IMG/VR virus record: IMGVR_UViG_3300027808_000017
Span: 1-64,000 of that record
Reading direction: 5' to 3' (one strand)
DNA: 64,000 nucleotides
DNA from: a virus
Taxonomy: Duplodnaviria > Heunggongvirae > Uroviricota > Caudoviricetes
Made by a program: the position numbers and the translations under genes. Below, one piece after another: positions 20-48,663 of the stretch. Under the pieces are notes generated by a model. The model had not been told where the DNA came from. It did no database searches and was given only the letters and a program-made list of their open reading frames with translations. Position 1 is the first letter of the stretch; each line of letters begins with the position of its first letter.

Positions 20-442
20 ATGGGACTATTTGATATATTTAAAAAGAAGCCAGTAGAACAGGTCGTAGCACCTGTTAAGGAAAAGAAACCTCGCACTCCC
101 AAAGTAAAAGAACCCATCAAGGAATTATCCGCTAAGGAAAAAGCAACCGCGGCAGGTGAACCTTATGTCAATGTATTGAGTATGGAAATTGATCCTGACA
201 ATATTAATGCAGGTGCATTTGAACTCGACTGGAACGACAAATTCATTCTTAATTTAATAAAAGCGGGTTACAAGATGCGTGACGATGATAAGGATACTGA
301 TTTAGTCGATAGGTGGTTTCAGACAGTGGCCAGAAACATTGCTTTAGAAGTATACGAGCAAGCACAAGCAGATCCAACTAACAGAGATTTACGAGAAATC
401 AAAACACGTGATTTGGGTAACGGGCGCACAGAAGTAAGTTAA
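20..442 (+). CDS. hypothetical protein, Lys/Pro-rich N-terminus
   Basis: 140-aa ORF in track; no recognisable motif. Confidence 0.45.
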   Translation: MGLFDIFKKKPVEQVVAPVKEKKPRTPKVKEPIKELSAKEKATAAGEPYVNVLSMEIDPDNINAGAFELDWNDKFILNLIKAGYKMRDDDKDTDLVDRWFQTVARNIALEVYEQAQADPTNRDLREIKTRDLGNGRTEVS

Positions 443-12335: not shown

Positions 12336-13130
12336 ATGAAACGTATTTTTACTCTCTCTATTCTCGCTGCCGCAATTTTGGCAACTGGCTGTACACGTAT
12401 TGAAACCGGCGAGGTTGGTGTGCGAGTTGGATTTGACCGACAGATTCAGCCAGGTGAATTGTTGCCTGGATCATTCAATCAAACCATGATAGGTGATGTG
12501 CTTACATTCCCTATCAAGGACGTGAATGTGGTGCTGGAGAATATGACTCCTGTGGCCAAAGACAATTCAACCATGAAAGACTTTGATGCTGTGGTTGTTT
12601 ACAACATCAACCCACAACAAGTGAGTGAATTGTATGCAACCAAGAACAAGAGTTTCCACGCTGAGTTCAAAGGCGACACCTATGTGATGTACAACTACAT
12701 TGTGCAAAATGCTCGCAACGCCATCTACAAAGCCACACGTAAATATGAAGCATTAGACATGGCAGACAATCGTACTGAAATGGAAAACTATATCAAGGAT
12801 GAAATTACACGAAACCTTACTGAAGAAAAACTAGATGGCTCAATCACCATCAATCAAGTTATGGTTCGTAGTGTAATTCCTGCTGACAGTGTTGTTGAAA
12901 GTGCAAACGCCTTGGTTCGTAGCAAAAACGAATTGAAGCAAAAAGAAGTTGAAGTAAAAACTGCCGAAGCAGAAAGTCGCAGAATGGCAGCACTGGCCAA
13001 CAACTCAGGTGCTAGTATTGCGTTCATGCAAGCACAGGCTATGTTGAATATTAGTGAAGGTATCAAGAACGGTCAAGTGCAGACAATCGTTGTACCTAGC
13101 AACTTTAACGCATTGATGATGAACAAGTAA
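12336..13130 (+). CDS. SPFH/band-7 (prohibitin-like) lipoprotein
   Basis: lipobox ILATGC; TGEVGVRVGFDRQIQPGELLPG resembles SPFH domain start; C-terminal coiled coil. Confidence 0.55.
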   Translation: MKRIFTLSILAAAILATGCTRIETGEVGVRVGFDRQIQPGELLPGSFNQTMIGDVLTFPIKDVNVVLENMTPVAKDNSTMKDFDAVVVYNINPQQVSELYATKNKSFHAEFKGDTYVMYNYIVQNARNAIYKATRKYEALDMADNRTEMENYIKDEITRNLTEEKLDGSITINQVMVRSVIPADSVVESANALVRSKNELKQKEVEVKTAEAESRRMAALANNSGASIAFMQAQAMLNISEGIKNGQVQTIVVPSNFNALMMNK

Positions 13131-14642: not shown

Positions 14643-16304
14643 ATGTTCTCACGAATCTTTTCACTCAGCAATGCCACTCTTTTAGTGGCATTGGCACTTA
14701 GTACTATCGCCGCTTGGTATAGTATTGTTGGTCTAACCGCTATCTTTGCAAGTGCGGTTATACCTATTATCATCATGGGCTCGGCACTTGAACTTGCAAA
14801 AATTATAACAACAGTCTGGTTGCGTAAGTATTGGGATCGTTGTACTTGGGTAATGAAAGTATATCTTGTTCCGGCTGTTATTGCACTTGCAGTATTAACA
14901 AGCATGGGTATTTTTGGTTTCTTATCTAAAGCACACTTAGACCAAGGTGTTATAGGTGGTGATAGTATTGCCCAAGTACAAATTTTAGATGAAAAAATAA
15001 AAACAGCAAAAGAAAATATAGAGTCCAATCGTAAGGCTCTTAAGCAAATGGATGAGGCTGTAGATCAAGTCATGGCACGTTCAGATTCAGAAAAAGGTGC
15101 AGATAAAGCAGTATCTGTTCGTAGAAGTCAGACAAAAGAACGAGTTAGATTACAAAATGAGATTATAGCTGAACAGACAAAAATTGCTAAACTTAACGAA
15201 GAACGAGCTCCTATTGCTTCAGAAGTACGTAAAGTTGAAGCAGAAGTTGGTCCAATCAAATACATTGCGGCATTTATTTATGGAGATAATCCAGATGCTA
15301 ATTTACTTGAACGTGCAGTACGATGGGTAATTATTTTACTTGTTATTGTATTTGACCCTCTTGCAATTATTTTAGTGATTGCGGCTAATCAGAGTAAAGA
15401 TTGGGATAAAGAAATTGAAGATGATAAAAATGCTATGGCTATCATCCCACCCAAAGAAGAAGATACGAGACCCTTTACCGAAGAAGAAATAACAGCATTA
15501 GATAAACCGGTAGAAGAAGTTGATATAGTTCCTGCACCAGAAACTGAACCAAAAGCAACTTGGGCTTTTCCATCTGACCCACAACCCGAATCAGTTGACC
15601 ATTATGTAGCAAACAAATTTACTGAATTTGATCCTAGATATTTGGTTACTAAAGTTATCACTGAAGAAGAATCTAAAGATATAGTGGCTTCTCCGGCATA
15701 CCCTGAAATGTATATCGATTATCAAATAATAGAAGATGTTATTGAAGAAGATTTACCACCTGTCACAAGTTGGGTAGAAATTCCTGAACCAGAAGTAATT
15801 GTAGCAGAGGAAGAAATCAAAGTAGACGATTCTCCTCCTTACGAAGGTATTAGAGATTTAAAAACAGGCCAATGGATACAAACAGGACCTGCAATTATTG
15901 ATCCAACAATAAAATCTACTATGGGTTTTAAAGATTTGGGCGGAGGGTATGTAGAATTTGAAGGCAAGAGAATGGCACTTCATGTTTTAAGAGATAAGCG
16001 TCCTGATTTGTTTGCTATCAGAGAAGACAATCCAAGACAAGTAAAAATTACTTTTGGATCCAAATCAGTTACTGTTGGTTTGATAGGTGATACGTTTATT
16101 CGTACCGATGCTATTCCCCATCGTGTTTTCAAAAGCAATGGTGAAAAATGGATAGAGATTAACAAGAACACAACAGCTACTTACTTAAGTAACACTAATT
16201 ACTTACAACATCTAATGGAAAAAATAGCAACTGGTGAATACGAACCCGACCTTTTAACCGAGTTGGAACAAGAGGCCATTTCAAATCATTTGAATTCAGC
16301 TTGA
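14643..16304 (+). CDS. multi-TM membrane protein with coiled coil and long acidic C-terminal domain
   Basis: 553 aa; ~3 N-terminal TM helices, coiled coil, further TM (VIILLVIVFDPLAIILVIAA), acidic tail. Confidence 0.55.
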   Translation: MFSRIFSLSNATLLVALALSTIAAWYSIVGLTAIFASAVIPIIIMGSALELAKIITTVWLRKYWDRCTWVMKVYLVPAVIALAVLTSMGIFGFLSKAHLDQGVIGGDSIAQVQILDEKIKTAKENIESNRKALKQMDEAVDQVMARSDSEKGADKAVSVRRSQTKERVRLQNEIIAEQTKIAKLNEERAPIASEVRKVEAEVGPIKYIAAFIYGDNPDANLLERAVRWVIILLVIVFDPLAIILVIAANQSKDWDKEIEDDKNAMAIIPPKEEDTRPFTEEEITALDKPVEEVDIVPAPETEPKATWAFPSDPQPESVDHYVANKFTEFDPRYLVTKVITEEESKDIVASPAYPEMYIDYQIIEDVIEEDLPPVTSWVEIPEPEVIVAEEEIKVDDSPPYEGIRDLKTGQWIQTGPAIIDPTIKSTMGFKDLGGGYVEFEGKRMALHVLRDKRPDLFAIREDNPRQVKITFGSKSVTVGLIGDTFIRTDAIPHRVFKSNGEKWIEINKNTTATYLSNTNYLQHLMEKIATGEYEPDLLTELEQEAISNHLNSA

Positions 16305-16324
16305 CCCAAAATCATCAAAAACAA

Positions 16325-16353
16325 TTGACACTAAATCATTTTGGTGCTATACT
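16325..16353 (+). promoter_or_regulatory. sigma70-type promoter
   Basis: TTGACA-17-TATACT. Confidence 0.5.
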
Positions 16354-16387
16354 ATGTTTATTGTTCAACTACACACAGAGGTTAATT

Positions 16388-17017
16388 ATGAAACTTAAAT
16401 TATCAGTACTTGTCATTGCATTGTCACTGACCGCATGTTCTAGTATGAAGACCGGTAACGGTACTAATTCTAGTGTCCCGATCGTCAATCAAAAGCTATC
16501 TACGTCATTCGTAGCTGAGGGTGTTAAGATTGAAACTAAATGTAGTTGGTCTATGTTCGGCAAAGATGAATGTCAATTAGTTGCTATTGAGGCAATTGGT
16601 ACAGCACCTACATTTGGTAACACTACGTCAAATCGTAAGAATGCACTTACCCGTGCTCAAATGGCAGCTGAACGTCAAGTAACTGAATTTTTGCAAAAAG
16701 AAGTCACCACTAGTCGTGTTCAAAACACTATTGCCAAGAACATTGAAAAGGCTTCTGACAAAGTTAAGTCAGGTAAGACTGATGATAGCGCAGTTGAATT
16801 GACTGACAAAGAGGCAAGTACTATTAATTTGCGTGAAAATCACAATGACACCCTTGTGTCATTGACTGAAAACATTCAAACATCAGCCAAAGCAATTCTC
16901 AAAGGCTTCATCAAGACTGACGAACGAGTTATTGGTGATCAGGAAGTTTCTGTGACTATGCGGTGGGACATAGACAGTGAACTGGCTCGCAATCAACTTG
17001 CTAAAGCAATGCGATGA
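16388..17017 (+). CDS. lipoprotein
   Basis: MKLKLSVLVIALSLTACSS lipobox; RBS GAGG. Confidence 0.55.
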   Translation: MKLKLSVLVIALSLTACSSMKTGNGTNSSVPIVNQKLSTSFVAEGVKIETKCSWSMFGKDECQLVAIEAIGTAPTFGNTTSNRKNALTRAQMAAERQVTEFLQKEVTTSRVQNTIAKNIEKASDKVKSGKTDDSAVELTDKEASTINLRENHNDTLVSLTENIQTSAKAILKGFIKTDERVIGDQEVSVTMRWDIDSELARNQLAKAMR

Positions 17018-18048
17018 AATACATATTGCTTGCGGTGATGCTGGCCCTAACAGCATGTGCTAGCACTACTGAGGCTGTAAGAACTTCAAGCGATAGTCCC
17101 GATGCTGGGGTCATACGTGTTCTCGGCACAGGATCAACTAAAGAAGAGGCAAAGAATAACGGCTTCACTACTGCTATCGAAATTGCTGTTGGTTCTGCAA
17201 TTCTTTCACACAAAGATGTCCGTTCCGATAAACTTATACGTGATGACATAGTGAAATACAATGCAGGTTACGTTGATAATTATAAAATCATTGACGAGAC
17301 AAAAACAAGCGGTGGTTACTCATTGTTGATGGATGTTCATGTTAAGAGCAGTCGCATACATGAACGATTATTGAGTGGGGGCGGTGACGAGAAAAATGTC
17401 AACGGTGATAAATTGGCTACTCAATATGACACATATCGTGCCCAACAAGAATCAGCCGATAAACTCATTGATGTGTTAATACAAGATTGGCCCGAAAAAG
17501 CCTTTACTATCAAACAAGGTAAACAAGAATTTAGTATTAATGAAAAACGTGTGTCTGTATTACGAATTCCAATTGAAATGAATATGAACTATAGCTATAT
17601 TATGGCATTGGATGAGTCTCTTAAAAAGATTAACCAAAAGAAAACATATTCAGATTTAAAAATTGGTATTGCAGTTAAAGCACCCGATGATTGGGTATTC
17701 GGTAGAACCAATGGATATTTCTTTGATGACATTCAACGTATAAAACAATTCCAACAAGGGTTTAATGATAACTTTTGGATTCAAGTTCATTTAAAAGATA
17801 TTAATGGTAATTTACTGTATTCTCAGTGTTTTGAACATGGAAGAAGTTTTTCATACCAAACAACTAAGGCATTTATTTTACAAGGTAATAACTCCGTAGA
17901 TTCTAACATTGAAATTGAACTAAATTCAAAACTATCCAAGACATTGCGCCAAGCATATAGTGTAGAAATGGTTCCCTCTAGAGTTTGTATCAACAAAATA
18001 TACGAAACTATACCTCTGCTAAAATGTCCCCCGCTAAACAAAAAATGA
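17014..18048 (+). CDS. lipoprotein
   Basis: MKYILLAVMLALTACAS lipobox; ATGA-coupled. Confidence 0.55.
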   Translation: MKYILLAVMLALTACASTTEAVRTSSDSPDAGVIRVLGTGSTKEEAKNNGFTTAIEIAVGSAILSHKDVRSDKLIRDDIVKYNAGYVDNYKIIDETKTSGGYSLLMDVHVKSSRIHERLLSGGGDEKNVNGDKLATQYDTYRAQQESADKLIDVLIQDWPEKAFTIKQGKQEFSINEKRVSVLRIPIEMNMNYSYIMALDESLKKINQKKTYSDLKIGIAVKAPDDWVFGRTNGYFFDDIQRIKQFQQGFNDNFWIQVHLKDINGNLLYSQCFEHGRSFSYQTTKAFILQGNNSVDSNIEIELNSKLSKTLRQAYSVEMVPSRVCINKIYETIPLLKCPPLNKK

Positions 18049-18059
18049 TAAGTAATAAT

Positions 18060-19283
18060 ATGACCGAAGAATCTAAAATAAATTATTGTCACTTTTGTGG
18101 GAACAGCAAAGAAATTGTAAAAAAACTTGTTGTTAGTGAGAAGGTTGCTATATGCAATGAGTGCGTGGAACTATGTCAGAATCTAATCAATGATGAAGTA
18201 GAGCCAGAAAATCCGATTGAACCTAATCGTGATCCGGAGGCCATCAAAGAATATCTTGATATGCACGTTGTTGGTCAAGAAGATGCTAAGATAGTTTTGA
18301 GCGTTGCTGTTGCCAATCATTATAAGCGCATCAACAATCCACCAAAAGATATTGAAATACAAAAAGGTAATGTGTTGATTGTCGGGCCTACAGGAAGTGG
18401 TAAAACATTGCTTGCTAAGACAGCCGCAAAATATCTTAAAGTGCCCTTCATTGTTGCTGATGCTACGAGTTTGACAGAAGCCGGGTATGTTGGAGATGAT
18501 GTTGAATCAATGATTAGTATGTTGATTCATGCCGCAGGTGGTGATGTAAAATTAGCCGAGCGTGGTATTATATTTGTTGATGAAATTGACAAGATTGCAC
18601 GTAAAGGTGAAAGTGCAAGTATCACCCGTGACGTATCAGGTGAAGGTGTTCAACAAGCATTGCTCAAAATGGTAGAAGGTAGTACCGTTCGTATTCCCAA
18701 AGAGGGTGGTCGTAAACATCCTGGTGGCGATATGAGTGAAATCAATACCAAAGATATATTGTTTATTGCCGGTGGCGCATTTGTTGGTCTTAAAGACATT
18801 ATTGCTAATCGTATGAATGGTACAAGTATTGGATTTAATGCTACTATCACTGACAGCAAAGTTGAAGGTGATTTGACAAAAGTCAGTCCTGATGACTTAA
18901 CCAAATATGGAATGATTCCTGAGTTCATTGGACGTTTTACTACTACAGTAAGTATCCAAGAATTGTCTAAGAAACAATTGGTTCATATTTTGACAGATGT
19001 AAAGAACAATTATATCAGTCAATACAAGTATTTGCTAAGTTTGGATAATATCAATTTATCTTTTACTAAAGAAGCCCTTGAACAAATTGCTGAGAATACA
19101 CTAACATTAAAGACCGGAGCACGTGGTTTACATACTGAGATTGAACGTGTTTTAATGTGTCATATGTTCTATACCAAGCAATACAAAGAAAATAATATAA
19201 CTATGCTAAATATAGATGTGGGTCAAATTTTAAATCCCACACCAATATATGACGAAAAAAGGAAGACAGGTACTAGTAACTGA
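18060..19283 (+). CDS. clpX: ATP-dependent Clp protease ATP-binding subunit ClpX
   Basis: N-terminal C4 zinc finger CHFCG...CNEC; Walker A GPTGSGKTLLAKT; ClpX-like length; start set at MTEESKINYCHFCG (track ORF starts further upstream). Confidence 0.85.
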   Translation: MTEESKINYCHFCGNSKEIVKKLVVSEKVAICNECVELCQNLINDEVEPENPIEPNRDPEAIKEYLDMHVVGQEDAKIVLSVAVANHYKRINNPPKDIEIQKGNVLIVGPTGSGKTLLAKTAAKYLKVPFIVADATSLTEAGYVGDDVESMISMLIHAAGGDVKLAERGIIFVDEIDKIARKGESASITRDVSGEGVQQALLKMVEGSTVRIPKEGGRKHPGGDMSEINTKDILFIAGGAFVGLKDIIANRMNGTSIGFNATITDSKVEGDLTKVSPDDLTKYGMIPEFIGRFTTTVSIQELSKKQLVHILTDVKNNYISQYKYLLSLDNINLSFTKEALEQIAENTLTLKTGARGLHTEIERVLMCHMFYTKQYKENNITMLNIDVGQILNPTPIYDEKRKTGTSN

Positions 19284-19470
19284 TGGTAATGTTGAAAAAG
19301 CATTACGTAAGTTTAAGAAAAAAATTGCAGAGCAAGGTCTACTGCAAGAAGTCCGCGACCGTCAAGAGTTCGTTAAACCCACAGTCAAACGCAAAATTGC
19401 CAAGAGCAAAGCAAAGAGTAGATGGAAGAAACATCTACGAGACCAAGAATTACCCAAAAAACTATATTAA
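19249..19470 (+). CDS. rpsU: 30S ribosomal protein S21
   Basis: VLVTDGNVEKALRKFKKKIAEQGLLQEVRDRQEFVKPTVKRK aligns with bacterial S21 ([43 protein letters not shown]); overlaps clpX 3' end. Confidence 0.75.
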   Translation: MTKKGRQVLVTDGNVEKALRKFKKKIAEQGLLQEVRDRQEFVKPTVKRKIAKSKAKSRWKKHLRDQELPKKLY

Positions 19471-19573
19471 CCTAAATAGTTGTATATATTGCACAATCAT
19501 GTAAAATATATACTGTAGTAGATGCCTAACGGGTCTATTACAACACAATCTTGCTTTAACAAAGGAGAAAATT

Positions 19574-21490
19574 ATGAGCAAAGTAATCGGTATCGACCTA
19601 GGTACCACAAATTCATGTGTAGCCGTCATTGAAAACGGAATCCCCAAAGTAATTGAAAACAGCGAAGGTGCTAGAACTACACCCTCAATCGTTGCCTATG
19701 CCAACGATGAGATTCTTGTAGGTGCTAGTGCTAAACGTCAAGCAGTTACTAATCCAAAAAATACAATCTACGCCGCAAAGCGACTGATTGGTCGTAAATT
19801 CAAAGAAGAGGCTGTACAAAAAGATATTAACTTGATGCCGTATACCATCGTTGAAAATGACAATGGTGATGCATGGGTTCAGTTAAACGATAATAAGTTA
19901 GCACCCCCGCAGATTTCAGCGGAAGTCTTACGCAAGATGAAAAAGACTGCGGAAGATTATCTAGGTCATGAAGTTACACAAGCAGTTATTACTGTTCCCG
20001 CTTATTTTAATGATAGTCAAAGACAAGCGACAAAAGATGCAGGTAAAATTGCAGGCTTGGAAGTATTGCGTATCATTAACGAACCCACAGCAGCCGCATT
20101 AGCGTATGGTGTAGATAAACAGGAAAAGCGTGACCGTAAAGTTGCTGTATATGACTTAGGTGGTGGTACCTTTGACGTATCAATCATTGAGATTGCCAAC
20201 GTTGATGGTGACACACAAGTTGAAGTATTGTCAACAAATGGCGATACATTCTTGGGTGGTGAAGACTTTGACCAACGCATCATGGACTACTTGATTAGTG
20301 AATTCAAAAAGGATTCAGGAGTCGATTTAAGTAAAGACATGCTAGCACTGCAACGACTAAAAGAAGCCGCAGAAAAGGCTAAGATTGAGTTGTCAAGTAC
20401 AGCACAAACAGATGTTAACTTACCATATGTAACAGCAGATGCTAGCGGTCCTAAGCACATGAACATTAAGTTGTCACGTAGCAAATTGGAACAGTTAGTT
20501 GATGAATTGATTCAACGCAGTATTCAACCATGTAAGACAGCTATGGCTGATGCTAAGATTTCAATAAGTGATATTGACGAGGTTATTCTTGTTGGTGGTA
20601 TGACACGTATGCCTAAAGTACAAGAAATGGTTGAATCATTTTTTGGTAAAGCACCTCGCAAGGACGTTAACCCGGATGAGGCAGTTGCCGCTGGTGCCGC
20701 TATTCAGGGTGATGTATTAGGTGGTGGACGCACAGATGTTTTATTGCTTGATGTTACTCCATTGAGTCTTGGCATTGAAACAATGGGTGGTGTGATGAGT
20801 AAGTTGATTCAAAAGAATACAACTATTCCTACTAAACAAAGTCAAACATTCAGTACAGCAGAAAACAATCAACAAGCGGTTACTATTAAAGTATTCCAAG
20901 GTGAACGTGAAATTGCACAATACAACAAGTTGCTAGGTGATTTTAACTTAGATGGAATTCCACCAGCACCAAAAGGTATGCCTCAAATCGAAGTTACATT
21001 TGATATTGATGCTAACGGCATTATGCACATCGGTGCAAAGGACAAAGGTACTGGTAAGGAAAACAAAATCACTATTAAATCAAACAGTGGTTTGAGTGAA
21101 TCAGAGATTCAAGAAATGGTTAAAGATGCTGAATTGAATGCTGAATCTGACAAGAAAGCCCGTGAATTAATTGAGGCACGTAATGGTGCAGAATCAACAT
21201 TGTATGGATTCAAACAAGACTTTAATAAGTACAGTGACAAAGTTACTGAAGAAGAAAAAACTAAAGCCGAAGAAGCAATCAAAGCAGTTGAAGAAGCAAT
21301 CAACGGGGATGACCCAACCGTTATCCAAGATAGTATTCCTAAATTATATGAGGCAATTGGTCCAATCACTAAAGCTAAAAGTGATGAAGAAGCCAAGAAA
21401 AAGGCTGAAGAGGCAACTAAGACTACAGAAGCACCAAAAGATGACAATGTAGTTGATGCAGAAGTTAAAGAGTCACCGGAGACTGTTTAA
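19574..21490 (+). CDS. dnaK: chaperone DnaK (Hsp70)
   Basis: [18 protein letters not shown]..., full-length Hsp70 (638 aa); RBS AAAGGAG. Confidence 0.9.
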
Positions 21491-21554: not shown

Positions 21555-22001
21555 ATGACAAGAGAATTAACATTAAGAGCGTTAGACATACCAACCATTC
21601 ATAGATTTGGAATAGGATTTGATTCTATGATAGATGAACTGATGCGTATGAATGCAACGCAAACTAACACCAACTACCCACCCTATAATATAGTAAAAGA
21701 ATCTGAGGATCGATTTGCTATTGAAGTAGCGGTTGCTGGGTTTAGTGAAGGTGAGGTTTCTATTGAAATAGAGAATCGTGTACTTACAATTGCCGGTAAC
21801 AAAATACATGACTTAGATAATCCTAAAGAATATCTACATCATGGGATAAGTAACCGTAATTTTATTCGTGAATTTTCTTTAGCAGAACATGTTGAAGTTA
21901 AAAGTGCTATAAATGAAAACGGGATCTTATCTATTGGACTAGAACGAATTATTCCAGAAGAGCATAAGCCCAAGAAGATTGTAATAAATTACAATAAATA
22001 A
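21555..22001 (+). CDS. small heat-shock protein (Hsp20/IbpA family)
   Basis: alpha-crystallin-like core (AVAGFSEGEVSIEIENRVLTIAG), 148 aa. Confidence 0.75.
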   Translation: MTRELTLRALDIPTIHRFGIGFDSMIDELMRMNATQTNTNYPPYNIVKESEDRFAIEVAVAGFSEGEVSIEIENRVLTIAGNKIHDLDNPKEYLHHGISNRNFIREFSLAEHVEVKSAINENGILSIGLERIIPEEHKPKKIVINYNK

Positions 22002-22024: not shown

Positions 22025-22052
22025 AGTGTGCGGGAAACTGCACACTTTTTTG
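22025..22052 (+). terminator. rho-independent terminator
   Basis: AGTGTGC-GGGAAACT-GCACACT followed by T6. Confidence 0.6.
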
Positions 22053-22063
22053 AAAGAGAAAAA

Positions 22064-22369
22064 ATGGCACAAACAGATACGAACCTAAGCGTAAGACCTA
22101 TAGTTGATGTAAAGGAACCACCGTTGTTCAGAGTAATTTATATGAATGATGATTTAACCAGTATGGAATTTGTTATACGGAGTTTGATTGATCATTTTCA
22201 TTACACAGATGAAACCGCAGTGAATATCACAACTGGAATTCATGATTCCGGAAGTGCAGTAGTTGCAGTGTTACCATATGAAATTGCAGAACAAAAGGGT
22301 ATTGAAGTAACTATGGAAGCCAGAACTGAGGGCTATCCGTTACAAGTTAAAATTGAGGCCGAGACTTAA
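22064..22369 (+). CDS. clpS: ATP-dependent Clp protease adaptor ClpS
   Basis: PLFRVIYMNDDLTSMEFVIRSLIDHF...VAVLPYEIAEQKGIEVTMEARTEGYPLQ aligns with ClpS ([20 protein letters not shown]...); start moved to ATG 22064 after terminator. Confidence 0.65.
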   Translation: MAQTDTNLSVRPIVDVKEPPLFRVIYMNDDLTSMEFVIRSLIDHFHYTDETAVNITTGIHDSGSAVVAVLPYEIAEQKGIEVTMEARTEGYPLQVKIEAET

Positions 22370-23434: not shown

Positions 23435-23944
23435 TTGAGGTTCCAAAGCAGATTTTTTCATAAATACTGTATGTTCAAGTCCTTGTCATTGCGAGAGTTG
23501 ATGGATCTACCCTTGCCCAAAATCACCGCGCAAAAAAGACTACTATTTAGACCGGATTTAGAGGATGTGGAACATGTCTATGATTTGTTAAATGAGCATG
23601 TTTTTGATAATATTTTAGTTAAGCCTAATATTAAATTGGGCACATGCCGAGACTATTGGGGAATGTGTTATGGGGAGGACAATCCCTATAATAGCGGAAC
23701 TTATTGCAGAATCAAACTAAGTGACAAATGGTATTCTGCTCAATGGATGGTGACAATGTTATCGCATGAAATGAGTCATCAGTATCAATGGGATGTTTAC
23801 AGTCATGGTCGTAAGACTAGAGTTATGAGCCATGGACCTAGTTTCTACAGATATCAATTAAAGATGCGGGAACACAATATTTCATTGAAAACATACTATT
23901 CTACTAGACAATGGTTTAATAAACAAGATTTGTTTAAAGCGTGA
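23435..23944 (+). CDS. SprT-like zinc metallopeptidase
   Basis: HEMSHQYQW...H motif in SprT-like context; 169 aa (true start may be Met 23471). Confidence 0.55.
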   Translation: MRFQSRFFHKYCMFKSLSLRELMDLPLPKITAQKRLLFRPDLEDVEHVYDLLNEHVFDNILVKPNIKLGTCRDYWGMCYGEDNPYNSGTYCRIKLSDKWYSAQWMVTMLSHEMSHQYQWDVYSHGRKTRVMSHGPSFYRYQLKMREHNISLKTYYSTRQWFNKQDLFKA

Positions 23945-25519: not shown

Positions 25520-26107
25520 ATGAGTCTAGTCCCAATCGTCATTGAACAAACAAGCAAAGGTGAGCGTAGTTATGATATCTACAGCCGTCTATTGCGTGAC
25601 CGTGTAATTTTACTTGAGGGTGAAGTACATGACCAAATGGCAAATCTTATTGTTGCCCAATTGCTATTCCTAGAATCAGAGGGTGACAAGGATATTTCAA
25701 TGTATATCAATAGTCCCGGCGGTAGTGTGACAGCAGGTATGGCAATCTATGATGCTATGCAATTCGTTAAGCCTGATATTCATACAATTGTAATGGGTCA
25801 GGCATGTTCTATGGGTAGTCTACTCGCACAATCAGGTGCACCCGGTAAACGTTTTATGTTGCCCAATGCAAGGCACATGATTCATCAACCTTCAGGTGGT
25901 GCAAGAGGTCAAGCAACTGATATGCTGATTCAGGTAAATGAAATACTTGAAATGAAAAAGAACCTAACAGGAATCTACACTAAGCACAATTCAAAAGGTA
26001 AAACTTTTGATGTACTCCAAGCTGATATGGAACGTGATAATTTTATGAGTGCTCAACAAGCATTTGACTATGGACTAGTAGACGAAATAGTTACAAAGCG
26101 AGGTTAA
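25520..26107 (+). CDS. clpP: ATP-dependent Clp protease proteolytic subunit ClpP
   Basis: [27 protein letters not shown] (Ser), HQP...GQATD (His/Asp) catalytic triad context; 195 aa. Confidence 0.9.
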
Positions 26108-37781: not shown

Positions 37782-38564
37782 TTAATTTAACAAATCTGGT
37801 TGTTCTTTTAGGATTCTATGATACAGTGGTTGAAAACTAAACCAACCTGCAAATGCTGATCCCACGATTGAATACGATTGTTCACATGATTCCGTAGAAA
37901 TACTTTTTGGGCTATGGGTGACACCCGCAGATTCTGTCAATAACTGTACCTGACAACTTCTTTCCATGGTAATAAACCACCATGCGGCTGCGTCAACAGT
38001 ATCGCCCACAGTCAGCAAACCGTGATTTTGTAGGATTACCGCTTTGTTTGCCCCCAGTGCATTGGCTATTCTTTTACCCTCATCAAGTTCAACTGCCACA
38101 CCACCAAAGTCTTGATATACTGAATGATCATTGTAAAAAGCACAAACATCTTGTGTCAGCATGTCAAGAGGTTTACCAAATGTGCTCCATGCCCTACCGT
38201 ACATACTATGTGAATGTGCCGCTGCCATAGCATCAGGTCGGGCGTGATGAACACTGCTGTGTATTGCAAAACCTGCTGTGTTAACAGGATGATTACCTTC
38301 AATGACATTTCCTGAATGGTCTACTCTGAGCAAATTAGACACACACACCTGACTAAAATGCACTCCAAACGGATTAATCCAAAACGTGTCTAAAAATTCT
38401 GGATCCCGAGCCGTTATATGCCCCGCGACACCTTCATCAAATCCAAATTTTGAAAAAAGACGAAACGCCGCAGCCAGGCGCTGTTTGCAATGAAGTCGGT
38501 GGTCTTGGGGATTTGAAAACACCGGCGGGGTTGGTAAATCTAATGCCATTTTACGTTGATCCAT
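37782..38564 (-). CDS. class II aldolase/adducin-domain protein
   Basis: GHITARDP..., HSH, LQNHGLLTVG motifs typical of class II aldolase/adducin N-terminal domain; G+C-richer. Confidence 0.55.
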   Translation of the reverse strand: MDQRKMALDLPTPPVFSNPQDHRLHCKQRLAAAFRLFSKFGFDEGVAGHITARDPEFLDTFWINPFGVHFSQVCVSNLLRVDHSGNVIEGNHPVNTAGFAIHSSVHHARPDAMAAAHSHSMYGRAWSTFGKPLDMLTQDVCAFYNDHSVYQDFGGVAVELDEGKRIANALGANKAVILQNHGLLTVGDTVDAAAWWFITMERSCQVQLLTESAGVTHSPKSISTESCEQSYSIVGSAFAGWFSFQPLYHRILKEQPDLLN

Positions 38565-39963: not shown

Positions 39964-40299
39964 TTAATGTTTTCTAGGATGGTTTATAAACCATCTCTCT
40001 AATTCTTCCAAATTTAAATCACCATCAAAGTGTTTCTTAAATCCCTTATAGAATCTTATCTTTTCTGGATCTCCGTTGAATCGTTCCATGATTTGATCTT
40101 CTTCTAACTGCTCCCGTTGAAACTCTGGTAATATTTCTTTATAGCTGTAATATCCAAATAAAATAAAACAAGCAAGCACTGATGTTATGAAAATGAAGGC
40201 ATATATATAGTCGTGGAAAATAATTAAAATTATAGGTACTAAAAAGACACCAAGAATTGATAGCAAAATTAACGATAGTGTTTTAGTTACTGGATTCAT
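39964..40299 (-). CDS. 2-TM membrane protein
   Basis: TM helices LSLILLSILGVFLVPIILIIF and FIFITSVLACFILFGYY. Confidence 0.45.
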   Translation of the reverse strand: MNPVTKTLSLILLSILGVFLVPIILIIFHDYIYAFIFITSVLACFILFGYYSYKEILPEFQREQLEEDQIMERFNGDPEKIRFYKGFKKHFDGDLNLEELERWFINHPRKH

Positions 40300-41122
40300 T
40301 TTCTGTTTTCTTTCTCTCTTTCTCTGCTAAAAATTCTTCATATTCTTTTAATTTTTTCTGTCGTTCAAACCATTCCTGTTTCCTCAATTCGGCTAGGCGA
40401 GTTTGATATGGTTTATTTTTTATGTCATATCCCCATCTTGTTTGAGCATCATGTGCTATCCACATCATTAACCCACCTATGACTAACATTACAATAATAA
40501 CACCCACACCAAACATAAACTCAAATTGATACTTAGCCATTCTTTGTTTGCGTCTTAATGCTTGTGCCGCCTCTGCTCGCATTTGTTTTGCAACAAGAAT
40601 TTTTTGTTCAGTACCCATTTCTTTAGTCATTAAGTCTACTTCGGTGTACAATGCACCCAGTTCAGGTGGTGATTGGTAGATCATGAGTTCACGCAATTCT
40701 TTACCCATTTGTTCTAATTGCTTTTTCATTAGAACACGTTTTAATGCACGTTTAGCTAAACTATCACCACCACTATATACTTCTGTCTTACTGCGCTTTT
40801 CTTCTTCTTCAAGTACTGCTAGACATTTGAAATAGTTATCGTAGTAAGCGCCCAGACTGTCTCCAATTTCTGTATAGATATTGGTGCTTTCCTCACTACG
40901 TTTGTTTAGTTCTTTTACGCGGGTTTTTTCTTCTGCTAACTGCTTAACCGCGGCAGGTGGAACAGGTTTTCCCTCATACTTTTTATGAAACTGGTCATCT
41001 AAATCTTTTAGTACGCCCTTTACATCACCTGTCGCACTCTTAATGTCTTTATAAAGTTGGCACCCCTTCTTAACGGCTTGTACTGCGCCGTTTGCTAAGG
41101 CAAAGAGGGTAAACGGATCCAT
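40283..41122 (-). CDS. coiled-coil protein with C-proximal TM segment
   Basis: 279 aa; TM FMFGVGVIIVMLVIGGLMMWI. Confidence 0.5.
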   Translation of the reverse strand: MDPFTLFALANGAVQAVKKGCQLYKDIKSATGDVKGVLKDLDDQFHKKYEGKPVPPAAVKQLAEEKTRVKELNKRSEESTNIYTEIGDSLGAYYDNYFKCLAVLEEEEKRSKTEVYSGGDSLAKRALKRVLMKKQLEQMGKELRELMIYQSPPELGALYTEVDLMTKEMGTEQKILVAKQMRAEAAQALRRKQRMAKYQFEFMFGVGVIIVMLVIGGLMMWIAHDAQTRWGYDIKNKPYQTRLAELRKQEWFERQKKLKEYEEFLAEKERKKTENESSN

Positions 41123-43664: not shown

Positions 43665-43880
43665 ATGGCAAAAGAAGAGGGTATTAAAATGGACGGCAAG
43701 GTAGTAGATGTACTACCTAATGCCGTTTTTAAAGTAGTAATGGAAGCTGGTCCTATCATAACAGGATACATCAGCGGCCGCATGCGTAAGCATGATATTA
43801 AAATTTTATTGGGTGATACTGTTGAAGTTGAATTCAGCCCATATGATTTGACTAAAGGTCGTATAACCCGTAGACGGTAA
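43665..43880 (+). CDS. infA: translation initiation factor IF-1
   Basis: 71 aa S1-like OB fold: [63 protein letters not shown] aligns end-to-end with bacterial IF-1. Confidence 0.85.
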
Positions 43881-45574: not shown

Positions 45575-46126
45575 ATGTACGATATTGTAGAGAAAATCAG
45601 TGAATCCAGAACAAAAAAATTAGAGATAGTCAAGCTATCCTATGACCTTTCCGACCTCAATCCAGTATTAAGCAAAAAGACAATGGATTATCACTATGGG
45701 GATTTAGCCCATGGATATGCATCCCGATACAACAAGGGTGAGGGTGACAAAGATTTCAATTATGCGGGTGCTTTCCTGCACAACATTTATTTTCCGCAGT
45801 TTCGCAAAATACAAGAAGATAACACTCCTAACGGTCCTGTACTAGGAATCATTAAGCGTAAGTACGATTGGTGGAGAGATTTTAAAGAACAATTCAAACA
45901 AGAAGCCATGAAGATACAGGGTAGTGGTTGGATTTATATGAGTTATACAGGTGAGATAAAGACTATTGTTAACCACGAGGTTCGTGAAGATATTCTTATT
46001 CTAGTTGACTGGTGGGAACATGCTTGGGCCTTAGACTATCAAGCAGATAAAAAAGGTTACTTAGAAAACATTTGGAAGATAATGAACTGGAGTCACATCA
46101 ATACCCGCTGGGGGAAGAATTTATGA
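45575..46126 (+). CDS. Fe/Mn superoxide dismutase homolog
   Basis: SKKTMDYHYGDLAHGY ~ QTMEIHHTKHHQTY; GSGWIYM ~ GSGWAWL; DWWEHAWALDYQ...IWKIMNW ~ DVWEHAYYLKFQ...FWNVVNW. Confidence 0.6.
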   Translation: MYDIVEKISESRTKKLEIVKLSYDLSDLNPVLSKKTMDYHYGDLAHGYASRYNKGEGDKDFNYAGAFLHNIYFPQFRKIQEDNTPNGPVLGIIKRKYDWWRDFKEQFKQEAMKIQGSGWIYMSYTGEIKTIVNHEVREDILILVDWWEHAWALDYQADKKGYLENIWKIMNWSHINTRWGKNL

Positions 46127-48663
46127 GAGCCACTGAATTTATAACTGAATCTAAAACTGTAGAGTACGAAGGCTTAACACTAAAAATAAGTAAACAAGGT
46201 CATGAGTTAATAGTCAATGCCCTTGATGATTGGGGTAATAAAGTATTAGGCCATGTAAGATTCAACATAGGTGATGGTAAAGAATTAGACCCACAAGACC
46301 TTAAAGTTGATGATAAGTATCAAGGTCAAGGCATCGCTAAAGTCATGTATGATTATGTTAAAAGTCTTGGCTATACGATTGCTAGAAGTTATGACCAAAC
46401 TGATGCCGGTGCAGGCTTTTGGAACAAGCATCGCGGAGAAGATGTTCGTATTTGGGAAGCCCGAGCCGGTGGAAAACTGAATAGAAAATACGATTCGGCC
46501 CGTCGAGAAGTTAAAAGCATTTTGAACAGCCCATACATAAACTTAAAAGAGTGGGGTCTGAGCATGACTATGTTGCCCAAACTAGGTATTAATCCTGGCA
46601 AGGGCATCAGCGAGGATACTCCCAAGGGCATTTACTTTTATCCATTAGCGTATGTCAATGATTGGGTCAATGGTTCTGAGGAGTTACCATGGGGTAATGA
46701 TTTCCCATACATACAAGTGTTTCAATACGATACTAGTCATCGAATGACACCGGACACAAAAGTTGATCCTGAGAGATTAAAGGCAACACTGCGTCAATAT
46801 TGTCCTGAAGAAGTTATCAATCAATTAATAGAAGAAGGCACATACAACAATGATCCTTATTGGTTTATTTATAATTGCCTAATTCAAGTAAGCAAGAATG
46901 ATGAATCTACTATTATTCGTTGGAATAAAATATTAAGAGACTTGGGCTTTACTAGTGTTTATGACTATGGCAAGGGCTGGATAGCACACAACGAACCAGA
47001 GCAAGGTATTATCTTAGATCCAAGAATCATCAAGCAGGTTCAAACTTTTAACAACTACACACGTAAGCAAGGTGTAGCGGAGGGCAAGGTCAAACTCTAC
47101 ACAGATCCTGGCTATTTTGGGGCAGAAGTAGATGACACAGGGTTTGATGGCCTACCAGTAGTCAACATACCCACTAATCAACTTGTGGGATTTGAACCAG
47201 ATTCAAAGATGAATCAACCAAAAAGCCGAGCCAATGTTGAAAAAATAGTAGCAGGATTGAAACAAGGTGACAAGTTGCCACCATTGTTGGTTCGCAAATA
47301 TAAAAATGGATATCAAGTATTAGATGGTCATCATAGATTCTGGGCCTATAAATTGTCGGGTACAAAATCTATTCCATCACGAATTGTACCTGATAAAGAT
47401 ATAGAAGAAATCAGTAAACAAGGTGTGGTAGAAAGTGTCAATGACTATCTATGGCACGGGTCTAGGTATAGAAATGAGGTACTAGTACCGCGTCAGGCTA
47501 ATGATACCGGTGGTAAAGAAGAAAGTAATAAAAATGCTATATATGCTACTCCTAGTGCAAAAGTTGCTATAGCAATGGGGCTAACTACTCCTGGATCAGA
47601 TACCGGAATGTTTCCAAACGATCCACAAATGGTACTATTCAAAGGCGGTATTAGAAAAGGTGAAATGGTTTACTTGCACAAGGTACCTAAAGATTTATTC
47701 ATAAAACACAACAGCAGAGAATGGTATAGTAAACCCGATGTAAAAGAAATTACACCTATAGAAGTAGTAACAGTTCCTGTAGACAAATGGTTAAGTTTGA
47801 TTAGAACTGCTACCCCTAAAGATTTAGAATTACAGAAAAAAAACATGAAGAAGCAAGGTGTGGCGGAAGGCTTAGATGATAATAGAGTTAGTTTCAAGGT
47901 ACAAAAAGGTAAAAACAAATTTGCAACTACTTTAAGTGTTGGTGGCGACCCAGTAGGAGTATACCAATATGATGCTGATACAGGTCGTAGCATAGCCGAG
48001 ATTTATCCAGAATTCAAAGGCAAAGGATTAGGTAAATTATTGGTTTTACATGCTATCTATACCGCGGCTAATTTGGGATTAGATTTCCAAGAAGATGAAT
48101 CAAGAACCTCAGAGTATGATAATGTATTAGATAGTTTGAGTAGTAACGGTTATATTGTAGATGACGATGGATATTGGTATGTAACCGGTCAAGGTGAACA
48201 ATATCTACAACAATCATTAAAACAAGGTGTGGCGGAAGGTGATGACAAATTAAAAGATCCAATAGCAAATGCAATATTAGATTTCTATCAACATGCCGGA
48301 CATATTAGCAAAGACCCAATTGATAACTATGTTGGTACTGCAAAAGAATTGCTAAGTCAGGTCAGTGATCCTACAGTCAAATCAAAGATACTAGATATTT
48401 TCAAACAAGCAAAACAAAGCCCATATGTTCAAGGTGGAGTTGTTACAACTATTGGTGCATTACTTGCCGGTGGAGTATTAAGTTCAGCACAGAAAATGGG
48501 ATTGAGTCCAGCGCAAACTAACTTAGTGTTACAAGCGATACTAAATACAGTTATACCTACTGTGGTGTCCAGGATCAATGGAAAGAGTTGGAGTGACACA
48601 GTTAAGTACACACTAGCAAGTGCAGGCATTGGTACTGGCATTGCTGGTATGATGGAGGAATAA
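46123..48663 (+). CDS. large multidomain protein: GNAT-like / ParB-like nuclease domain / second GNAT-like, with KQGVAEG linker repeats and hydrophobic C-terminus
   Basis: GNAT motif A-like YQGQGIAKVMYDYV and KGKGLGKLLVLHAIY; ParB/Srx motif GYQVLDGHHRFWAYKL; start at MRATEFITES (GGGGGAAG RBS). Confidence 0.5.
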   Translation: MRATEFITESKTVEYEGLTLKISKQGHELIVNALDDWGNKVLGHVRFNIGDGKELDPQDLKVDDKYQGQGIAKVMYDYVKSLGYTIARSYDQTDAGAGFWNKHRGEDVRIWEARAGGKLNRKYDSARREVKSILNSPYINLKEWGLSMTMLPKLGINPGKGISEDTPKGIYFYPLAYVNDWVNGSEELPWGNDFPYIQVFQYDTSHRMTPDTKVDPERLKATLRQYCPEEVINQLIEEGTYNNDPYWFIYNCLIQVSKNDESTIIRWNKILRDLGFTSVYDYGKGWIAHNEPEQGIILDPRIIKQVQTFNNYTRKQGVAEGKVKLYTDPGYFGAEVDDTGFDGLPVVNIPTNQLVGFEPDSKMNQPKSRANVEKIVAGLKQGDKLPPLLVRKYKNGYQVLDGHHRFWAYKLSGTKSIPSRIVPDKDIEEISKQGVVESVNDYLWHGSRYRNEVLVPRQANDTGGKEESNKNAIYATPSAKVAIAMGLTTPGSDTGMFPNDPQMVLFKGGIRKGEMVYLHKVPKDLFIKHNSREWYSKPDVKEITPIEVVTVPVDKWLSLIRTATPKDLELQKKNMKKQGVAEGLDDNRVSFKVQKGKNKFATTLSVGGDPVGVYQYDADTGRSIAEIYPEFKGKGLGKLLVLHAIYTAANLGLDFQEDESRTSEYDNVLDSLSSNGYIVDDDGYWYVTGQGEQYLQQSLKQGVAEGDDKLKDPIANAILDFYQHAGHISKDPIDNYVGTAKELLSQVSDPTVKSKILDIFKQAKQSPYVQGGVVTTIGALLAGGVLSSAQKMGLSPAQTNLVLQAILNTVIPTVVSRINGKSWSDTVKYTLASAGIGTGIAGMMEE
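47065..48240 (+). repeat. three copies of a ~20-nt intragenic direct repeat encoding KQGVAEG
   Basis: AAGCAAGGTGTAGCGGAGGGC at 47065-47085, AAGCAAGGTGTGGCGGAAGG at 47851-47870, AACAAGGTGTGGCGGAAGGT at 48221-48240. Confidence 0.7.

What the first reader, a model, noticed from the sequence alone, without database searches (positions are those of the whole stretch)
19249..19470. Phage-encoded ribosomal protein S21
There is clear homology to bacterial bS21 across the conserved core. S21 sits at the mRNA exit and anti-SD region and modulates initiation. A phage copy could retune ribosomes toward phage leaders. S21 is among the few ribosomal proteins reported in phage genomes, so this fits an emerging pattern.
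Basis: partly seen in the sequence, partly recalled or inferred. Interest (0 to 1): 0.55.

Follow-up and report, generated by a model that had tools for sequence, protein, structure and literature searches.

The report
Jumbo-phage ribosomal protein S21 gene
A real ribosomal protein S21 gene sits on an uncultured giant freshwater-type phage, fused in expression to the phage's own ClpX chaperone gene; phage S21 genes are already well documented, so this is a good new example rather than a discovery.

Summary
ORF 19249..19470 (+) encodes a 73-aa basic protein that passes the curated S21 thresholds (Pfam 57.5 bits against a cutoff of 27; TIGR00030 51.2 against 28.95).

The setting is viral. There are many small ORFans and a T4-type DNA ligase. 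A family B polymerase lies just upstream on contigs that continue the window, and it is closest to the Atu_ph07, RaK2 and PA5oct-type jumbo phages. At least 80 syntenic IMG/VR contigs carry the same region, the longest 524 kb. No virion gene was seen directly.

The gene is under strong purifying selection (dN/dS about 0.12). In all 86 phage-clade loci examined, plus the window itself, its ATG overlaps the stop codon of a phage clpX. The module is conserved: ClpX–S21–(DnaK)–Hsp20–ClpS…ClpP. The cultured Pseudomonas jumbo phage PA5oct has the same ClpX/S21 overlap followed by Hsp20 and ClpS.

The C-terminal tail (LRDQELPKKLY) is of the betaproteobacterial type. An invariant Trp59 is specific to the phage lineage. 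The window also encodes IF-1.

Phage bS21 is a published phenomenon (Mizuno 2019, Al-Shayeb 2020, Chen 2022). Ribosome retuning remains untested here. Verdict: new member of a known kind, modest interest.

The parts
19249..19470 (+). bS21 (rpsU) homologue, 73 aa
   Evidence: Pfam PF01165 57.5 bits, TIGR00030 51.2 bits, phrog_21469. dN/dS about 0.12 over 67 distinct CDS. PDB hits are all S21 chains.
18024..19283 (+). Phage ClpX (zinc finger plus AAA+), 419 aa from the ATG used in the public gene calls. A TTG at 17985 is also open.
   Evidence: NCBIfam ClpX equivalog NF003745 508.9 bits (cutoff 359); Pfam zf-C4_ClpX and AAA_2. Gene call of 419 aa on identical contigs.
19249..19283 (+). 35-nt overlap of the clpX 3' end with the S21 start. 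There is no Shine-Dalgarno motif before the S21 ATG, which implies translational coupling.
   Evidence: The overlap is present in all 86 phage-clade loci L001-L086: 4 nt (ATGA) in 65, 7-35 nt in the rest. The upstream sequence is flagged as lacking an SD. PA5oct has a 14-nt overlap.
19574..21490 (+). Phage DnaK (Hsp70), 638 aa, with a strong AAGGAG Shine-Dalgarno. Present in about half of the related loci.
   Evidence: NF001413 DnaK 987.6 bits. Presence/absence seen.
21555..22001 (+). Hsp20 small heat-shock protein
   Evidence: Pfam HSP20 E=2.9e-17; phrog_432 E=1.4e-40. Syntenic in all complete loci.
22028..22369 (+). ClpS adaptor homologue
   Evidence: Pfam PF02617 on the identical gene in L001 and E=2.4e-23.
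23501..23944 (+). SprT-like metalloprotease-domain protein
   Evidence: PF10263.
25520..26107 (+). ClpP protease subunit
   Evidence: Pfam CLP_protease E=1.8e-77. Conserved at 70-95% identity in related loci.
14643..18048 (+). Three conserved genes of unknown function that always precede clpX: a 553-aa protein with a hydrophobic N-terminus, a 209-238-aa protein, and a 344-aa predicted lipoprotein.
   Evidence: Syntenic in nearly all 80 IMG/VR loci. No Pfam or PHROG hits.
43665..43880 (+). Translation initiation factor IF-1 homologue, 71 aa. This is a second 30S-initiation gene on the same phage.
   Evidence: Pfam PF01176 E=1.3e-20 for one ORF of the set. That ORF was identified by blastp, 56% identity to E. 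coli IF1 over 70 aa.

Best explanation
This is a genuine bS21 ribosomal protein gene carried by an uncultured jumbo myophage of the RaK2/Atu_ph07/PA5oct supergroup.

It is expressed as the distal cistron of phage clpX. Its ATG lies inside the end of clpX and has no Shine-Dalgarno of its own, so ribosomes finishing ClpX re-initiate on S21. The pair belongs to a conserved phage operon: ClpX-S21-(DnaK)-Hsp20-ClpS...ClpP.

The inferred mechanism follows from bS21 being a late-binding, readily exchangeable 30S protein that sits next to the anti-Shine-Dalgarno end of 16S rRNA. The phage copy would enter host 30S subunits during infection, replacing or supplementing host bS21. It would then alter start-site selection or keep initiation running for phage mRNAs, about half of which carry strong SD motifs. 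A phage IF-1 may assist.

Shown here: homology, viral setting, purifying selection, coupling to clpX, and an SD-using translation style. Inferred: ribosome incorporation, by analogy with the HTVC008M bS21 experiment. Speculative: preference for phage leaders.
For: S21 identity. The core residues shared with cellular S21 (E16, A18, R20, F22, R36, R38, K43, P44, A55) are intact, and the C-terminal tail LRDQELPKKLY aligns without gaps to Burkholderia ...RIRSQTLPKKLY and Neisseria ...RLRSQQLPPKMY.

Viral setting.

Selection.

Coupling: 86 of 86 clade loci; PA5oct gp255/gp256.

SD use: 49 of 109 ORFs have a core SD 4-mer at -17..-4, against a 7.9% background; 5-mers are 34% against 1.7%.

IF-1.

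Literature: HTVC008M bS21 is stably incorporated into E. coli 70S (PMC6375957). Phage bS21 is transcribed with late genes in lake metatranscriptomes (PMC9723584).
Against: There is no direct evidence that this protein binds a ribosome. The host is unknown, so the tail comparison is with a likely donor lineage and not with the host. PA5oct's S21 tail (...QRQKKKKI) lacks the ...RLY ending typical of gammaproteobacterial bS21 (E. coli sequence from my own knowledge; host P. aeruginosa per PMC7318152), so tail mimicry of the host is not a general rule. In Mizuno 2019, ribosomes carrying phage bS21 translated a reporter at only about 5%. That result fits inhibition or incompatibility as well as selectivity. 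Structure search could not confirm the fold (Foldseek E>=0.38). No virion gene was seen in the window itself.
Confidence: 0.62

Rival explanations
1. Simple supplementation. The phage S21 has no selectivity. It tops up a sub-stoichiometric, easily lost 30S protein so that more host ribosomes are initiation-competent during the heavy protein synthesis of a jumbo-phage infection. Phage DnaK, Hsp20 and ClpXP then handle the resulting folding load.
For: The core and tail are close to cellular S21. The gene is co-located with a complete folding/degradation set. Phage genes use ordinary SD motifs.
Against: The phage lineage has its own invariant features that cellular S21 lacks. These are a short basic N-terminal extension (G5, R6), D12-G13-N14, and Trp59, which is found in 82 of 82 phage-module S21 and 0 of 59 genome/MAG S21. 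This pattern suggests altered rather than identical function.
Confidence: 0.2
2. Host shut-off. The phage S21 poisons or re-specifies host ribosomes so that host mRNAs are poorly initiated, acting mainly as an inhibitor.
For: E. coli ribosomes carrying HTVC008M bS21 had about 5% activity in vitro (PMC6375957).
Against: That assay was heterologous, and the authors themselves suggest incompatibility. Nothing in this sequence indicates loss of the S21 core.
Confidence: 0.1
3. Repurposed partner of the phage Clp machinery. The S21-like protein works with phage ClpX/ClpS, for example as an adaptor, as an anti-adaptor, or as the replacement delivered while phage ClpXP removes host S21. Its main role would not be as an independent ribosomal protein.
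For: The start/stop overlap with clpX is strict in 86 of 86 loci and in PA5oct. Related jumbo phages place another initiation factor (IF-3) directly after ClpX, or next to S21 and a ClpS-like gene.
Against: Operon linkage alone is weak evidence for physical partnership. HTVC008M has S21 next to Hsp20 without ClpX. All S21 family hallmarks are retained.
Confidence: 0.06
4. The window is cellular (for example a small-genome bacterium) and this is its ordinary rpsU.
For: clpX, dnaK, clpS, clpP, infA and Fe-S assembly genes look cellular. Three relatives are labelled as MAG contigs: Nanopelagicus, Polynucleobacter and Chitinophagales.
Against: Those MAG contigs are short (5-11 kb) and carry the same phage module. 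The three labels disagree with each other at phylum level. The window has no tRNA or rRNA. It has dozens of ORFans, a T4-type ligase matching 2158 phage records and PHROG-only families. The adjoining polymerase is jumbo-phage type. The 80 relatives kept for inspection come from the IMG/VR viral-contig collection.
Confidence: 0.02

Closest known systems
Pseudomonas jumbo phage vB_PaeM_PA5oct gp255 (ClpX) / gp256 (30S ribosomal protein S21), GenBank MK797984
   Same: The gene order matches: FolE/QueD nearby, then ClpX, S21 overlapping the ClpX stop (14 nt), Hsp20, ClpS, and a SOD-like gene that has a homologue in the window at 45575..46126. Both are non-nucleus jumbo myophages of the RaK2-related group (PMC7318152 and its preprint; polymerase hits).
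   Different: The proteins are only distantly related: ClpX 42%, S21 46% over 57 aa, Hsp20 27%, ClpS 33%. PA5oct has two extra small genes after S21, has no DnaK there, and its S21 tail (...QRQKKKKI) lacks the LP-KK-LY ending and Trp59.
Pelagibacter phage HTVC008M bS21 (AGE60443), the experimentally tested phage S21
   Same: It is a phage-borne bS21 in a T4-like aquatic myophage, two genes away from an Hsp20. It shares 44% identity over the N-terminal 41 residues.
   Different: No ClpX coupling; the upstream gene is CobS. The tail is of a different type. The genome is smaller (147 kb) and the host is an alphaproteobacterium.
bS21 of freshwater Bacteroidetes-infecting huge phages (Chen et al. 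2022, PMC9723584)
   Same: These are huge phages from lakes with a conserved bS21 under selection. Their survey of 900 published bS21 phages already recorded Hsp20 (127) and Clp proteases (50 and 47) within ten genes of bS21.
   Different: There the gene lies on the reverse strand inside the capsid/terminase block and keeps an aromatic residue at the F. johnsoniae Tyr54 position. Here it lies in a chaperone/protease operon. The residue aligned to Tyr54 is Ser57, with Trp59 two positions later (alignment). The phage genes are also SD-rich.
Cellular bS21 of Betaproteobacteria (Burkholderia, Neisseria, Mycetohabitans rpsU)
   Same: The alignment is full-length and gap-free in the C-terminal half. 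The shared tail motif is LR[SD]Q-LP[KP]K[LM]Y. In the plasmid/chromid collection, only betaproteobacterial hits reach residue 73.
   Different: Overall identity is only 39-43% by MAFFT (44-50% in the tblastn segments). Cellular proteins lack the 3-residue basic N-terminal extension, the DGN motif and Trp59.
ClpX/IF-3/S21/ClpS neighbourhoods of other jumbo phages (Vibrio phage 2.275.O, Sinorhizobium phage Phosso, AP-J-162/Atu_ph07)
   Same: A translation-initiation gene sits directly beside Clp components: IF-3-RpsU3-ClpS-like-...-SOD in the Vibrio phage, and ClpX-IF-3 in Phosso (PMC11242549). The polymerase on contigs that continue the window is closest to these phages.
   Different: The initiation gene next to ClpX is IF-3 rather than S21. 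This window carries IF-1 elsewhere, and no IF-3 was found.

Membership tests
Bacterial ribosomal protein bS21 (Pfam PF01165 / TIGR00030) | Profile-HMM score above the curated threshold over the whole domain | tested here: met
   PF01165 57.5 bits against 27, profile positions 1-53 of 55. TIGR00030 51.2 bits against 28.95, positions 1-56 of 58.
Bacterial ribosomal protein bS21 (Pfam PF01165 / TIGR00030) | Small (about 55-90 aa), single-domain, strongly basic protein | tested here: met
   73 aa with 24 K+R against 8 D+E, read from the sequence.
Bacterial ribosomal protein bS21 (Pfam PF01165 / TIGR00030) | Conserved core residues shared with cellular S21 | tested here: met
   E16, A18, R20, F22, R36, R38, K43, P44 and A55 are invariant in an alignment with Burkholderia, Neisseria, Mycetohabitans, Bacteroidia-type and Bdellovibrionota-type S21.
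Bacterial ribosomal protein bS21 (Pfam PF01165 / TIGR00030) | Helical S21 fold as seen on the 30S subunit | tested here: inconclusive
   The AlphaFold2 model has pLDDT 76 and helices at 15-29, 31-39 and 46-67. The top four Foldseek PDB hits are S21 chains, but E=0.38-2.1. The fold is only defined on rRNA.
Bacterial ribosomal protein bS21 (Pfam PF01165 / TIGR00030) | Physical incorporation into the 30S subunit near the 16S 3' end | not testable with these tools
   This needs ribosome purification with mass spectrometry, or cryo-EM. The only precedent is HTVC008M bS21 in E. coli (PMC6375957).
Virus-encoded bS21 (Mizuno 2019; Al-Shayeb 2020; Chen 2022) | Gene lies on a viral genome | tested here: met
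   Syntenic IMG/VR contigs reach 524 kb. A jumbo-phage-type family B polymerase lies on contigs that continue the window. The ligase is phage-type. The window has no tRNA, rRNA or Rfam hits. Caveat: no capsid, portal or terminase gene was seen directly.
Virus-encoded bS21 (Mizuno 2019; Al-Shayeb 2020; Chen 2022) | Under purifying selection in the viral lineage | tested here: met
   Median dN/dS 0.12; pN 0.17 against pS 0.77.
Virus-encoded bS21 (Mizuno 2019; Al-Shayeb 2020; Chen 2022) | N-terminal extension rich in basic or aromatic residues (noted for many huge-phage S21, PMC7162821) | tested here: met
   There are 17 residues before the ALRKFK motif, against 14 in Burkholderia and Neisseria. 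The extension MTKKGRQ has invariant G5 and R6. It is short compared with many relatives.
Bacteroidetes-phage bS21 clades of Chen et al. 2022 | bS21 on the reverse strand inside the terminase/capsid/portal block | tested here: not met
   The neighbours are ClpX, DnaK, Hsp20 and ClpS on the same strand. No structural-gene block lies within at least 19 kb on either side; the only faint structural hit in the window is ORF 20..442 (phrog_13349, E=6e-8), about 19 kb upstream.
Bacteroidetes-phage bS21 clades of Chen et al. 2022 | Aromatic residue at the position of F. johnsoniae Tyr54, and a host that lacks SD-led initiation | tested here: not met
   The aligned position is Ser57; Trp59 lies two residues later. 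SD motifs are 6- to 20-fold enriched upstream of the window ORFs.

The most novel reading that the evidence does not exclude
The strict clpX-rpsU start/stop overlap, together with the recurrent placement of initiation genes (S21, IF-3) beside ClpX/ClpS in several jumbo-phage lineages, may reflect a functional hand-over. In this reading, phage ClpX(P)/ClpS strips or degrades host bS21, or other exchangeable initiation components, while an equimolar, degradation-resistant phage bS21 takes its place. The phage protein is marked by the basic N-terminal extension, the DGN motif and Trp59. The result would be a coordinated protease-plus-replacement system for reprogramming 30S subunits.
Probability: 0.07. 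Interest if true: 0.7.

Novelty: new member of a known kind. Interest (0 to 1): 0.3.

Why it matters
Phage bS21 is the commonest ribosomal protein in viruses, yet its role in infection has never been shown.

This clade adds three things. First, it is very abundant and diverse: 397 IMG/VR stretches encode relatives. Second, it fixes S21 as the translationally coupled partner of a phage ClpX inside a full chaperone/protease operon. Third, the same arrangement exists in the cultivable PA5oct/Pseudomonas aeruginosa system, which gives a tractable model for deletion, ribosome proteomics and Ribo-seq.

The result also flags MAG contigs labelled Nanopelagicus, Polynucleobacter and Chitinophagales as misbinned phage fragments. 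This matters for anyone inferring S21 distribution from MAGs.

Tried and rejected
- GenBank phage DNA and protein searches at default stringency found no close relative. Only N-terminal matches at or below 53% appeared at E<=1.
- Host or donor identification by scanning GTDB species genomes returned mainly sequences that share one 8-mer (EKALRKFK). The two best hits were themselves phage-module contigs. No cellular near-relative was found, and the scan is not exhaustive.
- The exhaustive representative search gave 50-60% identical relatives, but none carries an organism name.
- Using the tail as a host predictor was rejected as a general rule, because PA5oct's S21 tail (...QRQKKKKI) lacks the ...RLY ending typical of gammaproteobacterial bS21 (E. 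coli sequence from my own knowledge).
- Promoter and terminator scans around the operon were no better than shuffled sequence.
- Rfam found nothing in the window.
- The fold search was not significant.
The last window ORF is not on record.
- No capsid, portal or terminase gene was reached, so the viral assignment rests on replication genes, synteny with IMG/VR contigs and cultured jumbo phages.
- The PA5oct paper and its held text say nothing about gp255/gp256 timing.

Full report
**Observation.** It passes the curated S21 models with room to spare. Pfam Ribosomal_S21 gives 57.5 bits against a cutoff of 27, covering profile positions 1-53 of 55. NCBIfam TIGR00030 gives 51.2 bits against 28.95. 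PHROG 21469 'ribosomal protein S21' gives E=9e-12. A profile of the clade hits 34 PDB sequences, all of them bacterial bS21 or mitochondrial bS21m. The protein is one-third Lys+Arg.

**Is it a phage?** The window has 37% GC, no tRNA and no Rfam family. It holds about 110 mostly small ORFs, most without any family hit. It contains a T4-type ATP-dependent DNA ligase that matches 2158 phage records, and a 5'-3' exonuclease.
- The exact S21 protein lies on at least 24 metagenome contigs with identical neighbours.
- 397 stretches in IMG/VR encode relatives at 68-97% identity. The 80 loci kept are all syntenic, on contigs of up to 170, 350-367 and 524 kb.
- Contigs 97-100% identical to the window continue upstream into FolE/QueD/QueE-like genes, UvdE and a family B polymerase (phrog_262, E=1e-195).
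- The best cultured matches of that polymerase are Sinorhizobium phage Phosso (48%), Agrobacterium phage Atu_ph07 (47%), Vibrio phage 2.275.O, Xanthomonas phage XaC1 and Klebsiella phage RaK2.

I did not reach a capsid or terminase gene. The viral assignment is therefore strong but indirect. Three relatives labelled as MAG contigs (Nanopelagicus, Polynucleobacter, Chitinophagales) are short contigs carrying the same module, which makes them misbinned phage fragments.

**Anatomy.** S21 is the second cistron of a conserved block:
- three unknown genes (553 aa, about 209-238 aa, and a 344-aa lipoprotein);
- ClpX, then S21;
- DnaK, present in roughly half of the loci;
- Hsp20, then ClpS;
- a reverse-strand unknown gene, a SprT-like gene, and further on ClpP.

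In the window the S21 ATG lies 35 nt inside clpX and has no SD motif in front of it. In all 86 phage-clade loci the S21 start overlaps the clpX stop. In 65 of them this is the classic ATGA four-base overlap. That is the signature of translational coupling. By contrast, dnaK, hsp20 and clpP each have their own AAGGAG-type SD.

Across 67 distinct coding sequences, synonymous sites are saturated (pS 0.77) while pN is 0.17. The median dN/dS is 0.12, and 25 of 74 columns are invariant.

**Comparison with cellular S21.** The family core is intact: E16, A18, R20, F22, R36, R38, K43, P44 and A55 are invariant against five cellular types. The C-terminal tail ...KHLRDQELPKKLY aligns without gaps to Burkholderia ...KRIRSQTLPKKLY and Neisseria ...KRLRSQQLPPKMY. 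In the plasmid/chromid collection only betaproteobacterial S21 align through residue 73, whereas alphaproteobacterial hits stop near residue 46.

Overall identity to any named cellular S21 is only 39-50%. The nearest relatives outside the clade in 1.84 billion representatives are unnamed metagenomic proteins at 50-60%.

Features specific to the phage lineage are:
- a three-residue basic N-terminal extension with invariant G5 and R6;
- D12-G13-N14;
- Trp59, present in 82 of 82 phage-module S21 and in 0 of 59 genome/MAG S21.

The tail points to a betaproteobacterial donor. It cannot name the host, because PA5oct's S21 tail (...QRQKKKKI) lacks the ...RLY ending typical of gammaproteobacterial bS21 (E. 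coli sequence, from my own knowledge). Core SD motifs precede 45% of window ORFs against a 7.9% background. The host therefore uses SD-led initiation, unlike the Bacteroidetes hosts of Chen et al. 2022.

**Known relatives of the arrangement.** The cultured Pseudomonas jumbo phage PA5oct has gp255 ClpX and gp256 S21 overlapping by 14 nt. These are followed by two small genes, Hsp20, ClpS and a SOD-like gene, with FolE/QueD just upstream. The proteins are 27-46% identical to those of the window.

HTVC008M has S21-hyp-Hsp20 without ClpX. Vibrio phage 2.275.O has IF-3-RpsU3-ClpS-like-...-SOD, and Phosso has ClpX-IF-3. Chen et al. counted Hsp20 (127) and Clp proteases (50 and 47) within ten genes of bS21 in 900 published phage genomes. 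The association is thus visible in the literature, but I found no paper that discusses the clpX-rpsU coupling.

The window also carries an IF-1 homologue at 43665..43880. This fits the repertoire of initiation genes reported for huge phages (PMC7162821).

**Mechanism.** Established knowledge holds that bS21 is a late-assembling, exchangeable 30S protein beside the anti-SD, and that it is needed for initiation on natural mRNAs (van Duin and Wijnands 1981, as cited in PMC6375957 and PMC7162821). HTVC008M bS21 enters E. coli 70S ribosomes and changes their activity.

The best-supported reading is that this protein is made together with phage ClpX and then exchanges into host 30S subunits. There it would modify or sustain initiation for phage messages. 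Incorporation is inferred, and selectivity is speculative. The rivals are plain supplementation, host shut-off, a Clp-linked role, and a cellular origin. They are weighed in the rival section; the cellular origin is essentially excluded.

**Verdict.** Phage bS21 has been described since 2013-2019 and surveyed in more than 1300 viral genomes. This is therefore a new member of a known kind. It adds a well-defined operon context, a lineage signature and a cultivable model for testing. Interest is modest at 0.3.

Noticed in passing
window 43665..43880 (+): A 71-aa translation initiation factor IF-1 homologue (Pfam PF01176 E=1.3e-20; 56% identical to E. coli IF1). The phage therefore carries two 30S-initiation genes.
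   Followed up: partly
window, several ORFs among those scanned (exact coordinates not resolved, except the SOD-like ORF at 45575..46126): The window holds a cargo of Fe-S cluster assembly and redox genes: two IscA-like (Fe-S_biosyn), one IscU/NifU_N, Fe/Mn superoxide dismutase and glutaredoxin. It also has dCMP deaminase, MazG, a DD-carboxypeptidase (Peptidase_S11), Band_7 (12336..13130) and DUF4337.
   Followed up: no
window 19574..21490 and loci L007-L086: A full-length phage DnaK lies directly after S21 in only about half of the related loci. In the rest, Hsp20 follows S21 directly, so this is a presence/absence polymorphism within one module.
   Followed up: partly
L087, L088, L154 (GTDB/NCBI MAG contigs): Contigs deposited as Chitinophagales, Polynucleobacter and Candidatus Nanopelagicus MAGs carry the phage ClpX-S21-Hsp20-ClpS module. 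L087 has 53% GC and L088 47%. They are probably misbinned phage fragments.
   Followed up: yes
L050 and L075 (IMGVR_UViG_3300027749_002876, 524,565 bp): One IMG/VR contig holds two different copies of the whole module in opposite orientation. Their S21 proteins are 73% and 76% identical to the query. This is probably a chimeric assembly of two related phages.
   Followed up: no
window 40283..41122 (-): A 279-aa ORF has a weak match to the C-terminal domain of Alp7A, an actin-like plasmid-segregation protein (PF22128, E=6.4e-5, 23.2 bits against a cutoff of 22).
   Followed up: no
window 46072..48663 (+): An 863-aa protein combines an N-terminal GNAT acetyltransferase signal with a central ParB-like region. 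The architecture is unusual and the function is unknown.
   Followed up: no
L151/L152 1716..5638 and L156 2417..5134 (contigs continuing the window upstream): GTP cyclohydrolase I, PTPS/QueD and a radical-SAM gene are present, which suggests 7-deazaguanine-type DNA modification. UvdE and a T4-type family B DNA polymerase are there too. PA5oct has FolE/QueD immediately before its ClpX-S21 pair.
   Followed up: partly
window 37782..38564 (-): A class II aldolase/adducin-domain protein (PF00596, E=3e-49) is encoded on the phage.
   Followed up: no
window 19283..19504 (+): A 73-aa ORF in another frame overlaps the S21 gene. It has no homologues or family hits and is judged spurious.
   Followed up: partly
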